From an uncultured bacterium (GTDB lineage: Bacteria > Patescibacteriota > Andersenbacteria > UBA10190 > CAIZMI01): a stretch of 64,000 nt of DNA. Below, piece after piece: positions 9,391-10,007 of this stretch (positions are counted from its first letter, which is position 1; each line of letters begins with the position of its first letter). Location of the stretch: positions 10,868-74,867 of the forward strand of contig CAIZMI010000021.1 in NCBI GenBank assembly GCA_903934015.1, written 5' to 3'. The notes beneath the pieces are model-generated. The model was not told where the DNA came from. It saw only the letters and a list, made by a program, of their open reading frames with translations, and did not search any database. The position numbers were made by a program, and so were the translations under genes.

Positions 9391-9502
9391 AAACCCACCC
9401 CCGCCCTCCCTTACAAAGGGAGGGAATGCTTTAAGGAGAACGTATGCTTCAAGAACCGTTTCCTCCCCTTTGTAAGGGGAGGAACAAGGTGGGGTTTAGA
9501 TA
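9391..9502 (+). repeat. repeat family C: 112-bp imperfect palindromic element (aaacccacc...cctcccTTTgtaaggggagg...ggtggggttt), left copy flanking the DUF559 gene
   Basis: It is a near-identical direct repeat of 9891..10007. Shorter relatives occur at 7201..7335 and 60668..60705. Confidence 0.75.
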
Positions 9503-9517
9503 GTGTAAAATGCATAG

Positions 9518-9892
9518 GTGAAATCTCTCATAAAATATAGATCAGATCTAAAACAAAAAGCACGAAAACTGCGTCACGATTCCACTCCTGCGGAAAAATT
9601 CATTTGGATAAAAATCCTAAGAAACCGACAACTACTCGGTTATAAGTTTATCCGCCAGAAACCAATAGGGAATTTCGTCGTAGATTTTTTCTGCTCAAAA
9701 CTTAAATTGGCTATTGAAATAGACGGGCATACGCATGATATTGACAGTGAATACGACAAACAAAGAACAATACAACTAAACAGTTTAGGTATAGAGGTTG
9801 TCAGATATTCTAATTCTGATGTTCTGAAAAACATCGAAGGAGTTTATTGCGATTTAATGGAAAGAGTTAAGAATAATGAAAAATATTTCTAA
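9518..9892 (+). CDS. DUF559 (Vsr/endonuclease-like) domain protein
   Basis: The sequence PAEKFIWIKILRNRQLLGYKFIRQKPIGNFVVDFFCSKLKLAIEIDGHTHD...D..R...L...G..VVRYSN..V matches the DUF559 pattern (KF.RQ..IG.Y..DF.C....L.IE.DG..H). The stop TAA overlaps the first bases of the right-hand repeat. Confidence 0.7.
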   Translation: MKSLIKYRSDLKQKARKLRHDSTPAEKFIWIKILRNRQLLGYKFIRQKPIGNFVVDFFCSKLKLAIEIDGHTHDIDSEYDKQRTIQLNSLGIEVVRYSNSDVLKNIEGVYCDLMERVKNNEKYF

Positions 9893-10007
9893 ACCCACCC
9901 TAACCCTCTCCCCAGTCAAGCTGAGGACAGGCTCTTACAAAGGGAGGGAACTTTTCTAGAACCGTCTCCTCCCCTTTGTAAGGGGAGGAACAAGGTGGGG
10001 TTTAGAT
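9891..10007 (+). repeat. repeat family C, right copy flanking the DUF559 gene
   Basis: It is a direct repeat of 9391..9502 with the same aaacccaccc start and caaggtggggtttagata end. Confidence 0.75.

What the first reader, a model, noticed from the sequence alone, without database searches (positions are those of the whole stretch)
9391..10007. DUF559 endonuclease gene bracketed by 115-bp palindromic direct repeats, inserted in the pilin array
A 124-aa DUF559 (Vsr-like endonuclease fold) ORF lies exactly between two near-identical copies of a 112-117 bp element. That element is itself an imperfect palindrome, aaacccacc...cctcccctttgtaaggggagg...ggtggggttt. The gene's stop codon overlaps the first bases of the right copy. 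The unit interrupts an otherwise uniform run of pilin paralogs, between paralog 5 and paralog 6. This looks like a small selfish cassette: a homing-endonuclease-like or MITE-mobilised gene. Shorter relatives of the flanking palindrome occur at 7201..7335 and 60668..60705.
Basis: seen in the sequence. Interest (0 to 1): 0.6.

Follow-up and report, generated by a model that had tools for sequence, protein, structure and literature searches.

The report
Nuclease gene nested in palindromic repeats
A small Vsr-like (DUF559) nuclease gene sits between two copies of a C-run/G-run palindromic repeat, and the same gene-plus-repeat pairing recurs across many bacterial phyla including E. coli ycjD; I found no description of it, and it may be a second REP/RAYT-like partnership between a nuclease and its own dispersed repeats.

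Summary
An intact 124-aa DUF559 gene (9518..9892) lies between two copies of a ~110-nt palindromic doublet (9391..9502 and 9890..10008). The stop codon overlaps the right copy.

The 616-bp unit is lineage-specific. Five syntenic pilin arrays from sister species lack it, and DNA homology stops about 20 nt before it and resumes about 4-19 nt after it.

One public contig is a closed 506-nt cycle of [gene + right repeat]. The unit therefore also exists as a circle or a tandem duplicate.

This is not a one-off. In 84 loci from about 18 phylum-level groups, C-arm/G-arm hairpins are 11-16 times denser beside DUF559 genes than in other non-coding DNA of the same loci. The geometry is fixed, the flanks match each other, tandem arrays occur, and the repeat type tracks the protein clade. 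E. coli ycjD shows the same pairing.

More than 90% of repeat copies are solo.

The best reading is a REP/RAYT-like partnership using a Vsr-fold nuclease, with the [gene + repeat] unit moving by crossover inside the repeat. The association is shown. The enzymology is inferred.

The parts
9338..9368 (+). Intrinsic terminator hairpin of the upstream pilin gene (AAAAACACGCCC-ATAA-CGGGCGTGTTTTTT). It is the last stretch still homologous to sister species before the cassette.
   Evidence: Homology to L130-L134 ends at 9336-9370.
9391..9502 (+). Left repeat, a doublet. A = C-tail TAAACCCACC plus hairpin at 9404-9424. Spacer = 9427-9459. A' = hairpin at 9462-9482 plus G-tail GGTGGGGTTTAGATA.
   Evidence: Profile hit with E = 5.7e-15.
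9461..9502 (+). 42-nt segment identical to 9967-10008. It is the inferred crossover zone for excision and integration of the [gene + repeat] unit.
   Evidence: family D1. The junction of L004 lies inside this segment.
9518..9892 (+). DUF559 (YcjD-like, Vsr-fold PD-(D/E)XK) nuclease gene, 124 aa. All family-invariant residues are present (D56, E67, D69, H73, D80).
   Evidence: Nearest structure by sequence is 3HRL, E = 4.9e-29. AlphaFold2 model pLDDT 86. Foldseek matches 3HRL, 3R3P and Vsr.
9890..10008 (+). Right repeat, a doublet. It starts with the gene's TAA stop codon. A carries a ~24-nt insertion (about 9909-9932). A' has its hairpin at 9968-9988 plus the G-tail.
   Evidence: Profile hit with E = 7.6e-10.
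7221..7345 (+). Decayed solo doublet of the same family (tail GGGGAGGGATTT), between the 294-aa pilin-like gene and the first short pilin. A matching hit lies at the corresponding intergenic position of a sister species (L130 3294-3352).
60663..60705 (+). Weak solo singlet relative (CCTCCCTTTATCCAAAGGGGGG plus tail CGGGGAGGGATTT).
   Evidence: Profile hit at E = 0.026. The fold is not better than shuffles.
8946..9302 (+). Upstream T4SS-type pilin paralog (context, not part of the cassette).
10038..10400 (+). Downstream T4SS-type pilin paralog (context). Its orthologs were used to find the empty sites.

Best explanation
What it is: a ~616-bp cassette made of a YcjD-like DUF559 nuclease gene embedded in its cognate dispersed palindromic repeats. 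It works like a RAYT gene among its REP/REPIN sequences, but with a Vsr-fold PD-(D/E)XK nuclease in place of an HUH transposase.

Shown:
1. The architecture is [A-spacer-A'] gene [A-spacer-A'].
2. It is an insertion specific to this lineage.
3. A 506-nt closed cycle of [gene + right repeat] exists in a natural sample.
4. The same gene-repeat geometry recurs in about 18 phylum-level groups and at E. coli ycjD. The G-tail faces the start codon and the C-tail follows the stop codon.
5. Most repeat copies are solo, either as singlets or as inverted doublets whose two halves co-vary.
6. The gene is intact and, in the one orthologous pair measured in another lineage (L007 against L060), under purifying selection.

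Inferred:
- The nuclease recognises the C-run/G-run palindrome, either as a dimer on duplex DNA or on an extruded hairpin or cruciform, and nicks or cuts it.
- The break stimulates recombination between repeat copies.
- A crossover inside A' releases a [gene + repeat] circle. The reverse reaction inserts the circle at a resident repeat, giving repeat-gene-repeat without a target-site duplication, and gives tandem arrays.
- This explains why the A' halves are identical here while the A + spacer halves differ.
- Solo repeats are maintained or spread in trans by the same activity.
For: Structure.

Intact nuclease.

Lineage-specific insertion: sister loci L130-L134 have no DUF559 and no such element between the orthologous pilins, and homology brackets 9371-10011.

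Cycle: L004 is 647 nt, its first 141 nt equal its last 141 nt (k = 141), the period is 506 nt, and the junction runs from the right-type spacer through A' into the gene start.

Generality:
- Homologs at 50-58% identity carry N- and C-terminal read-throughs such as 'PPSVPPCQGG...SPDKGRAGEGF'.
- Across 84 loci, C/G hairpins occur at 5.4 per kb upstream and 3.9 per kb downstream. The rest of the loci have 0.10 per kb and their non-ORF DNA has 0.34 per kb.
- The nearest upstream hairpin has its G-tail toward the gene in 36 of 58 loci. The nearest downstream hairpin has its C-tail toward the gene in 31 of 48.
- Upstream and downstream flanks share an exact inverted match of 10 nt or more in 37 of 75 loci and a direct match in 26 of 75. 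Controls 3 kb away give 2 of 53.
- The tail type tracks protein similarity (permutation p < 0.0005).
- Tandem [repeat-gene] arrays occur in L075 and L063. The repeat-gene-repeat form occurs in L006, L053 and L066.
- Insertions lie inside conserved operons: rsfS-rlmH in L007, L060 and L256, and between an RND adaptor and pump in L005.

Purifying selection: dN/dS = 0.15 at dS = 0.60 for the orthologous pair L007 and L060.

Doublet halves co-vary, including loop positions: 95% of cells are paired, 7 pairs change on both sides, and 0 of 500 shuffles reach this.

E. coli:
- ycjD is 36% identical to the window protein.
- It is followed by C/G palindromes and by a partial duplicate of its own 3' end.
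- That repeat has a median of 17 places per genome.
- ycjD is single-copy and present in 3378 of 5426 genomes.
- In a spread sample, genomes with the ycjD-locus copy have 13-29 places, while most genomes without it have 1-14.

Literature:
- DUF559 proteins are enriched among predicted inversion targets, with an odds ratio of 14 (PMC9881135).
- ycjD occupies the site of the eefRABCD operon in phylogroups A, B1 and C (PMC12817139).
Against: - No biochemical or genetic evidence links any DUF559 protein to these repeats.
- More than 90% of repeat copies are far from any DUF559 gene.
- This window has only two good copies and two relics in 64 kb, so there is no sign of proliferation in this genome.
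- Apart from the cyclic contig L004, the fetched contigs with the identical protein (L001-L003) are identical to the window, and all 14 share the same gene context, so no ongoing movement is seen.
- 13 of 84 DUF559 loci show no perfect hairpin on either side.
- The E. coli copy-number contrast is confounded by phylogroup and by the use of a K-12-derived query.
- The L004 cycle could be a tandem duplication made by ordinary RecA recombination.
- Co-variation of the inverted halves is also expected if doublets simply arise by inverted duplication.
- The nuclease could instead be a Vsr-like repair enzyme, as proposed for Caulobacter VsrA (PMC12907096).
Confidence: 0.5

Rival explanations
1. Homing-type parasite of an independent repeat. 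The repeats spread by some other means. The DUF559 gene is a free-standing homing endonuclease gene whose cleavage site is the repeat, or the junction between two repeats whose tails face each other. A cut solo site is repaired from a repeat-gene-repeat donor, which copies the gene in.
For: - The fold matches the catalytic domain of the Vsr-like homing endonuclease I-Bth0305I (3R3P).
- The gene sits exactly between a G-tail and a C-tail.
- Gene-free A'-spacer-A junctions with facing tails exist elsewhere, for example in L136, L190, L208, L240 and L063.
- Pseudogenised copies occur in arrays.
- Occurrence is sporadic and includes insertions inside operons.
Against: - The flanks are complete repeats, not two halves of a split site.
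- The protein is only 124 aa and has no extra DNA-binding domain.
- An orthologous insertion is kept across species under dN/dS = 0.15, and ycjD is a stable single copy in E. coli. Both point to long-term retention rather than a homing cycle.
- The empty syntenic sites here contain no repeat at all.
Confidence: 0.2
2. Passenger or hot-spot model. The repeats are MITE/REP-like elements moved by an unidentified enzyme, and they cluster at permissive intergenic spots. DUF559 is an unrelated small gene, perhaps a Vsr-like repair or defence nuclease, that is repeatedly captured between two repeats and carried or rearranged by host homologous recombination.
For: - More than 90% of the repeats are solo.
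- The pilin5-pilin6 spacer holds a different palindrome in each sister species, so it is a general landing spot.
- L066 carries an extra 152-aa ORF inside the repeat-bounded unit.
- A circle or tandem form needs only RecA acting on 42 identical bases.
- There is a weak PADLOC hit to methyl-directed restriction enzymes.
- Caulobacter VsrA has been proposed as a repair enzyme.
Against: - This model does not explain why this one gene family is the recurrent partner in about 18 phylum-level groups.
- It does not explain the fixed register, with the G-tail a median of 39 nt before the conserved N-terminus and the C-tail at or just after the stop codon.
- It does not explain why the repeat type co-varies with the protein clade.
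- No transposase lies near any of the loci inspected.
Confidence: 0.2
3. The repeats are cis-acting expression signals of the gene, such as operators bound by the protein, terminators, or RNA stabilisers like some REP sequences. Alternatively they are translated as N- or C-terminal extensions of the protein.
For: - The repeat abuts the conserved N-terminus in a sub-clade, as in 'PPDKGGKGGYIPYN', leaving no room for a canonical start.
- Many database proteins read through the repeats.
- The strands fold stably.
Against: - There is no preferred reading frame of the upstream hairpin relative to the gene (23:19:14).
- There is no T-run, so they are not intrinsic terminators.
- No Rfam family reaches threshold.
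- Most copies are nowhere near the gene.
Confidence: 0.06
4. The position is coincidental. A generic intergenic palindrome happens to lie on both sides of an unrelated ORF.
For: The element family is common in intergenic DNA of many organisms.
Against: - Only four family members occur in 64 kb, and the two intact ones bracket the gene, with the stop codon fused to one.
- The same arrangement recurs with 11-16-fold enrichment across 84 loci.
Confidence: 0.01

Closest known systems
RAYT (REP-associated tyrosine transposase, TnpA_REP) with REP / REPIN / BIME sequences
   Same: - A usually single-copy gene is flanked by its own short palindromic repeats.
- The repeats are mostly solo and intergenic, and occur as singlets or as inverted doublets whose halves co-vary.
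- Orientations alternate in arrays.
- The repeat type tracks the gene clade.
- The gene is retained and under purifying selection.
- Copy number is possibly lower where the gene is absent (E. coli sample).
   Different: - The enzyme is a Vsr-fold PD-(D/E)XK nuclease (DUF559), not an HUH-Y1 transposase.
- The repeats lack the GTAG/CGTC head. They are nested C-run/G-run palindromes with a C- or G-tail.
- Tandem [repeat-gene] arrays and a cyclic [gene + repeat] form are seen here.
E. coli YcjD and the dispersed C/G palindromes next to it. I believe these are the 'Box C' repeats first noted beside envM/fabI, but that name comes from my own memory and was not verified in the held library.
   Same: - YcjD is 36% identical to the window protein over the full length.
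- Its gene is followed by C-tail / hairpin / G-tail palindromes and by a partial duplicate of its own 3' end.
- The repeat is dispersed, with a median of 17 places per genome.
- The gene is single-copy and present or absent by phylogroup (PMC12817139).
   Different: - The repeat sequence differs (CCCCTCGCCCCTCTGGGGAGAGGGTTAGGGTGAGGGG).
- No such repeat lies upstream of ycjD.
- No published link between YcjD and these repeats was found.
I-Bth0305I and other Vsr-like ('EDxHD') homing endonucleases
   Same: The catalytic fold is the same (3R3P, Foldseek E = 8e-5), and both are selfish-gene contexts.
   Different: - The window gene is not in an intron or intein.
- It has no N-terminal DNA-binding domain.
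- It is flanked by complete repeats rather than by a split target.
Integron gene cassettes (ORF + attC) and IS26-type translocatable units
   Same: - A small circle of [one gene + one palindromic or repeated site] appears to integrate at a resident copy of that site.
- The product is site-gene-site without a target-site duplication, or a tandem array.
   Different: - No integrase or transposase lies nearby.
- All units in an array carry the same gene.
- The window's repeat end, GTTTAGA, does not fit the attC core GTTRRRY.
Vsr very-short-patch repair endonuclease, and Caulobacter VsrA (a DUF559 protein)
   Same: They share the fold and catalytic residues.
   Different: - No adjacent cytosine methyltransferase was seen among the genes called within about 10 kb.
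- The gene is embedded in repeats and behaves as an insertion.

Membership tests
DUF559 (PF04480) / YcjD-like Vsr-fold nucleases | Match to the family profile above the curated cut-off | tested here: met
   E = 1.1e-33, 115.8 bits against a cut-off of 20.6. The NCBIfam YcjD equivalog scores 72 bits, below its 218-bit cut-off, so it is the same family but not an equivalog.
DUF559 (PF04480) / YcjD-like Vsr-fold nucleases | Vsr / PD-(D/E)XK fold | tested here: met
   The AlphaFold2 model has pLDDT 86. Foldseek matches 3HRL at 1.5e-7, 3R3P at 8e-5, PvuRts1I/AbaSI, and Vsr 1CW0. By sequence, 3HRL matches at E = 4.9e-29.
DUF559 (PF04480) / YcjD-like Vsr-fold nucleases | Conserved catalytic D...ExD...H residues | tested here: met
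   D56, E67, D69, H73 and D80 are invariant in 31 homologs and are present in the window protein.
DUF559 (PF04480) / YcjD-like Vsr-fold nucleases | Nuclease activity and its substrate | not testable with these tools
   This needs biochemistry. The nearest structure, 3HRL, is uncharacterised.
RAYT-REP/REPIN system | Gene flanked by its cognate palindromic repeats | tested here: met
RAYT-REP/REPIN system | Repeats dispersed, mostly solo, as singlets and inverted doublets with co-varying halves | tested here: met
   Only 7% of copies lie beside the gene. There are 56 doublets and 98 singlets. Co-variation exceeds all 500 shuffles.
RAYT-REP/REPIN system | Enzyme is an HUH Y1 (IS200/IS605 TnpA-like) transposase | tested here: not met
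   The only Pfam hits are DUF559 and, weakly, MTES_1575.
RAYT-REP/REPIN system | Repeat carries the conserved GTAG/CGTC head | tested here: not met
   The element ends are TAAACCC...GGGGTTTA. A separate GTAG-type palindrome lies at 60782-60809.
RAYT-REP/REPIN system | Single-copy, vertically inherited gene under purifying selection | tested here: inconclusive
   E. coli has 1 copy per genome. dN/dS is 0.15 for L007 against L060. However, tandem multi-copy arrays occur in L075 and L063.
Homing endonuclease gene | Lies in a self-splicing intron or intein, or splits a conserved recognition site | tested here: not met
   The gene is intergenic and both flanks are complete repeats.
Homing endonuclease gene | Empty allele carries the uninterrupted target | tested here: inconclusive
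   Syntenic sites in sister species hold unrelated palindromes, not this repeat. Gene-free A'-A junctions exist in other organisms.
MITE / composite transposon | Terminal inverted repeats | tested here: met
   A and A' are inverted copies.
MITE / composite transposon | Target-site duplication | tested here: not met
   The flanks are ...TTTTGTGA|TAAACCC and GGGTTTAGATA|TTAATGG, with no duplication beyond a trivial dinucleotide.
MITE / composite transposon | Related autonomous element with a transposase between the same ends | tested here: not met
   No transposase was seen in any inspected locus. The gene sits between the outer tails (A'-gene-A), the reverse of the IS-to-MITE relation.
Integron gene cassette | Circular ORF + attC unit, attC core sites RYYYAAC / GTTRRRY, and an integron integrase or attI nearby | tested here: not met
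   A cyclic unit is present. However, the ends TCTAAAC / GTTTAGA do not fit the core sites, and no recombinase is among the genes called within 10 kb. No attC model was available to run.
Intrinsic terminator | GC-rich hairpin followed by a T-run | tested here: not met
   The scan finds only the hairpin at 9338-9366, and the repeats are followed by TTTAGATA.
Any Rfam RNA family | Score at or above the gathering threshold | tested here: not met
   Only tRNAs pass in the window. The best sub-threshold hits on the repeats are mir-188 at 27 bits against 72 and RAGATH-10 at 23 bits against 41.

The most novel reading that the evidence does not exclude
YcjD-like DUF559 nucleases are the dedicated partners of a pan-bacterial class of nested C-run/G-run palindromic repeats, which includes the dispersed repeats beside E. 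coli ycjD. The nuclease would mobilise or maintain those repeats. This would be a second nuclease-repeat symbiosis, evolutionarily independent of RAYT/REPIN and built on a Vsr-fold enzyme. In it, ~0.5-kb [gene + repeat] circles move by crossover at resident repeats.
Probability: 0.35. Interest if true: 0.85.

Novelty: new variant of a known kind. Interest (0 to 1): 0.7.

Why it matters
DUF559 is a very large family with no established function for its small stand-alone members. It has 22,418 clusters at 50% identity with E <= 1e-3. The short C/G-rich palindromic repeats seen here, in many phyla and in phage contigs, have no known origin or mobilising enzyme.

A specific and geometrically fixed pairing of the two suggests a function for the gene family and a source for the repeats. 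It would also extend the REP/RAYT idea of a domesticated nuclease living with its own repeats to a different enzyme fold.

E. coli K-12 carries the pairing (ycjD plus its dispersed repeats) and natural strains differ in having ycjD, so the idea can be tested directly by genetics and biochemistry.

Two practical points follow:
- The repeats explain the spurious N- and C-terminal extensions on many annotated DUF559 proteins.
- They probably also explain why DUF559 genes score as 'programmed inversion' targets.

Tried and rejected
- Rfam, at the gathering threshold on the whole window and at a permissive E-value on 9300-10100: no family fits the repeats.
- Intrinsic terminator or promoter role: no T-run and no promoter-like site for the gene.
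- Translation of the repeat as part of the protein: the upstream hairpin shows no frame preference (23:19:14). Read-through ORFs are therefore probably calling artefacts, except perhaps in one sub-clade.
- Integron cassette: no integrase, the ends do not fit the attC core, and arrays carry one gene only.
- Classical MITE derived from an IS: the orientation is reversed (the tails face the gene), and there is no target-site duplication and no transposase.
- Search for further cyclic contigs in other lineages: L256 and L257 have no terminal overlap. L004 is the only one among all loci under 3 kb.
- Strain polymorphism within the window's population: L001-L003 are 100% identical to the window over 11-12 kb, so no filled-versus-empty polymorphism exists at strain level.
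- Literature: searches for DUF559, PF04480/COG2852, ycjD, RAYT/REPIN + Vsr, and Box C found no description of the association. The held library is incomplete, so this is absence of evidence only.
- Defence-system libraries: only weak hits to methyl-directed restriction enzymes.
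Full report
**1. What is in the window**

The ORF at 9518..9892 (+, GTG start, 124 aa) is a full-length DUF559 protein. It matches PF04480 with E = 1.1e-33.

It keeps every residue that is invariant in an alignment of 31 homologs, including D56, E67, D69, H73 and D80. A profile of that alignment matches the uncharacterised Neisseria protein 3HRL at E = 4.9e-29.

An AlphaFold2 model has mean pLDDT 86. Its best structural matches are 3HRL, the catalytic domain of the Vsr-like homing endonuclease I-Bth0305I (3R3P), the nuclease domains of PvuRts1I and AbaSI, and Vsr itself.

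The gene is bracketed by two copies of one element, at 9391..9502 and 9890..10008. Each copy is a doublet with three parts:
- Part A is a C-tail (TAAACCCACC) followed by the hairpin CCCTCCCTT-ACA-AAGGGAGGG.
- A spacer follows.
- Part A' is the hairpin CCTCCCCTT-TGT-AAGGGGAGG followed by a G-tail (GGTGGGGTTTAGA).

A' is the inverted counterpart of A. Single strands fold as an outer stem formed by the two tails plus two hairpins, with z = -4.7 for the left copy and -3.1 for the right.

The 3' 55 nt of the two copies are 96% identical, and the last 42 nt are identical. The A halves differ, and the right copy has a ~24-nt insertion in the 5' arm of hairpin A. The TAA stop codon is the first triplet of the right copy.

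A profile of this doublet subtype finds only four members in 64 kb:
- the two flanking copies;
- a decayed doublet at 7221-7345;
- a weak singlet at 60643-60705.

The neighbouring genes are TrbC/VirB2-type T4SS pilins.

**2. It is an insertion, and it also exists in a cyclic form**

All 14 public contigs that encode the identical protein share the same context. The three longer contigs fetched (L001-L003) are 100% identical to the window over 11-12 kb.

Orthologs of the downstream pilin at 63-80% identity lie in syntenic arrays in five contigs of sister species, L130-L134. None of them has a DUF559 ORF or this element between the two pilins.

Nucleotide homology with those loci runs through the upstream pilin and its terminator as far as window 9336-9370. 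It resumes at 10012-10027. The segment specific to this lineage is therefore the whole repeat-gene-repeat unit. Each sister species carries a different, unrelated palindrome at that spot.

The relic at 7221-7345 appears to be old. The same profile hits the corresponding intergenic position of L130.

One contig, L004 (ena:ERZ27313522:k141_1109378, 647 nt), is a closed path:
- Its first 141 nt equal its last 141 nt, and 141 is the assembler's k.
- The period is 506 nt, which is exactly the spacing of the two repeats.
- The junction runs from the right-type spacer (CTTTTCTAGAACCGTCT) through A' into AGATAGTGTAAAATG, the sequence that follows the left copy in the chromosome.

Because k exceeds the 42-55-nt shared stretch, k-mers spanning this junction should derive from reads. 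A 506-bp circle or a tandem duplicate of [gene + right repeat] therefore exists in that sample. An assembly artefact is unlikely but not excluded.

**3. The pairing is general**

The nearest homologs (50-58% identity, from many phyla) often carry N- and C-terminal extensions that read like 'NQPPSVPPCQGG...SPDKGRAGEGF'. These are translations of the same kind of element on both sides of the gene.

Three loci were inspected by eye:
- L005 has a full doublet immediately upstream of the gene, which lies between an RND adaptor gene and its pump gene.
- L007 has the same arrangement between rsfS and rlmH.
- L006 has doublets on both sides.

A protein-based scan of one genome per species returned more than 576 relatives. 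The best 80 (L050-L129) come from about 18 phylum-level groups.

Statistics were computed across 84 loci:
- Perfect 7-bp C-arm/G-arm hairpins occur at 5.4 per kb in the 200 nt upstream of the gene and 3.9 per kb in the 200 nt downstream. The remaining 1.24 Mb has 0.10 per kb, and the non-ORF DNA of the same loci has 0.34 per kb.
- 57 of 79 loci have at least one hairpin upstream, 48 of 83 have one downstream, 34 have both, and 13 have neither.
- The nearest upstream hairpin carries its G-tail toward the gene in 36 of 58 cases. The nearest downstream hairpin carries its C-tail toward the gene in 31 of 48. The median distances from the conserved core are 39 and 34 nt.
- Upstream and downstream flanks of the same gene share an exact inverted match of 10 nt or more in 37 of 75 loci and a direct match in 26 of 75. 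Control regions 3 kb away give 2 of 53.

Two tail types are seen: GGGGTT(T)/AAACCCC and GGGGTGTG/CACACCCC. Protein similarity is higher within a type than between types (0.50 and 0.56 against 0.45, permutation p < 0.0005). Both types occur within Patescibacteria.

Other architectures also occur:
- Tandem [repeat-gene] arrays occur in L075 (period about 590 nt, at least 8 units, some pseudogenes) and L063 (period about 690 nt).
- L066, another Patescibacteria genome, has almost identical doublets around DUF559 plus a 152-aa ORF, between two aminoacyl-tRNA synthetase genes.
- The rsfS-[repeat-DUF559]-rlmH insertion is shared by L007, L060 and L256. For L007 against L060 the gene has dN/dS = 0.15 at dS = 0.60.

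**4. The repeats on their own**

A pattern for A' (CTCCCCTN{3,4}AAGGGGAGN{2,12}GGGGTT) gave two samples:
- In viral contigs it found 48 matches in 42 loci, none with a DUF559 ORF in the locus.
About 9 of these (7%) lie within 400 nt of a DUF559 ORF.

Of 154 non-redundant instances, 56 are doublets and 98 are singlets. Conservation ends about 3 nt before the hairpin and right after the tail. Arrangements with facing tails (A'-spacer-A) but no gene also exist.

In an alignment of 30 doublets, the A and A' halves co-vary, including their loop positions:
- 95% of cells are paired.
- 7 pairs have changes on both sides.
- 0 of 500 shuffles reach this.
- Slid controls give 50-70% paired.

Two caveats apply. 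The sequences were picked with a loose C-then-G pattern, and they are related to one another.

The reverse association is too strong and too regular for coincidence. REP sequences relate to RAYT genes in the same way.

**5. E. coli**

YcjD is 36% identical to the window protein over its whole length. In K-12, three features follow ycjD:
- a degenerate C/G palindrome fused to its last codons;
- a partial duplicate of its own 3' end;
- the palindrome GGTCCCCTCGCCCCTCTGGGGAGAGGGTTAGGGTGAGGGG.

That 68-nt stretch has 85,353 places in 5,426 complete genomes, with a median of 17 per genome. ycjD itself is present in 3,378 genomes, at a median of one copy per genome (maximum 2).

I took an evenly spread sample of 60 records:
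- Genomes with the full ycjD-locus copy have 13-29 places.
- Most genomes without it have 1-14. For example, an ST131 strain has 1 and O157:H7 strains have 12.

This is suggestive only. It is confounded by phylogroup and by the use of a K-12-derived query.

Three literature points bear on this:
- A recent paper reports that ycjD occupies the sapF-fabI site where other phylogroups carry the eefRABCD operon (PMC12817139).
- I believe the repeats are the 'Box C' family, but that name rests on my memory and could not be checked in the held library.
- A survey of programmed inversions lists DUF559 proteins among enriched targets, with an odds ratio of 14 (PMC9881135). That fits the flanking inverted repeats described here.

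**6. How it most likely works**

Shown:
- the architecture;
- the insertion;
- the cyclic form;
- the cross-phylum association and its geometry;
- the solo majority of repeat copies;
- co-variation of the doublet halves;
- purifying selection on the gene, measured for the orthologous pair L007 and L060.

Inferred:
- The nuclease recognises its palindrome and nicks or cuts it. Recognition could be by a dimer on duplex DNA, which would by itself explain the dyad symmetry, or on an extruded hairpin.
- The break drives recombination among repeat copies.
- A crossover within A' of the two flanking copies releases a circle of [gene + right repeat].
- The reverse reaction at any resident repeat gives repeat-gene-repeat with no target-site duplication, and repeated rounds give arrays.

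This model accounts for three local details:
- The A' halves are identical while the A + spacer halves differ. The left A + spacer would be the resident copy and the right A + spacer would have arrived with the circle.
- The L004 cycle carries the right-type A + spacer.
- No target-site duplication is seen.

I put 0.5 on this RAYT-like reading. The rivals are:
- 0.2 on a homing-type parasite of independently mobile repeats;
- 0.2 on a passenger or hot-spot model in which only host recombination acts;
- little on a cis-regulatory role or on chance.

**7. Known families**

The cassette is a member of DUF559. Every tested feature is met.

It works like RAYT/REPIN but is not a member, because the enzyme class and the repeat head motif both fail. 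It shares a fold with the Vsr-like homing endonucleases but has no intron, intein or split target.

It resembles integron cassettes and IS26 translocatable units in its circle and array logic, but it has no recombinase and its ends do not fit the attC core. It is not a classical MITE-from-IS pair, because the tails face the gene and there is no target-site duplication.

**8. Novelty**

I found no description of this pairing in the held literature. That library is incomplete, so prior description elsewhere cannot be excluded.

I rate it a new variant of a known kind: a nuclease living with its own dispersed palindromes. It can be tested directly in E. coli. The family is very large, with 22,418 clusters at 50% identity and E <= 1e-3.

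Noticed in passing
window 60782-60809: A perfect GTAG-headed palindrome (GTAGGGGCGATTCATGAATCGCCCCTAA on the minus strand), of the classical REP/RAYT type. It is a single copy in the window. A near-identical unit (gtaggggcgattcgcgaatcgccctac) sits next to a C/G repeat in viral contig L017.
   Followed up: partly
window 9371-10011 compared with L130 5857-6018, L132 1405-1537 and L134 286-503: The spacer between the terminator of pilin 5 and the -10 region of pilin 6 holds a different palindrome in each sister species. L132 and L133 have ATTCCCGCGAAGGCGGGAAT plus ACCCCCGTTTTCACGGGGGT, L130 has an AT-rich palindrome, and L134 has a long tcccaaat...atttggga palindrome. This looks like a landing spot for small palindromic elements.
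   Followed up: partly
window 4088-4109: The hairpin CATTCCCGTTGTCACGGGAATG resembles the ATTCCCGCGAAGGCGGGAAT palindrome of L132 and L133. It may belong to another small repeat family in this lineage.
   Followed up: no
L062 6105-8870: A repeat-DUF559-repeat unit lies inside one 2.7-kb stop-free frame that upstream encodes a DNA-methyltransferase motif (DLFCGSGTT). Several database representatives likewise have the DUF559 stretch inside proteins of 500-1300 aa, or as 2-3 tandem stretches. These are either in-frame insertions into host genes or ORF-calling through stop-free repeats.
   Followed up: no
L075 4600-11800 and L063 9700-12600: Tandem arrays of near-identical [repeat-DUF559] units occur in a Cloacimonadales genome and a Poribacteria genome. 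Some copies carry premature stops, and the spacers contain internal expansions.
   Followed up: partly
L066 9914-11119: In another Patescibacteria genome, two almost identical doublets enclose DUF559 plus an unrelated 152-aa ORF, between genes that look like argS and ileS. The repeat-bounded unit can therefore carry a passenger gene.
   Followed up: no
L063, L065, L067, L055, L061 and L069 (upstream of the gene): In one sub-clade the G-tail abuts the conserved N-terminus ('PPDKGG[KQE]GGYIPYN'). This leaves no room for a canonical start codon or ribosome-binding site, so translation may begin within or before the repeat, or at a non-canonical codon.
   Followed up: no
L135 5290-5420 (E. coli K-12, between ycjD and fabI): A partial duplicate of the ycjD 3' end (ggagacggtgctggagaatattc...) lies between two C/G palindromes. 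It looks like the remnant of a second tandem unit.
   Followed up: no
L130 4941-5793: This sister species has an extra copy of the pilin-5 paralog (two 118-aa genes in tandem, about 75-85% identical to window 8901-9366). The pilin array itself varies in copy number.
   Followed up: no
fold search with the window 9518-9892 protein model: The model also matches mitoribosomal proteins of Toxoplasma and Tetrahymena (9i05, 6z1p). That matches my recollection, not checked here, that RAP-type RNA-binding domains have a Vsr-like fold. RNA binding by DUF559 proteins is therefore not excluded.
   Followed up: no
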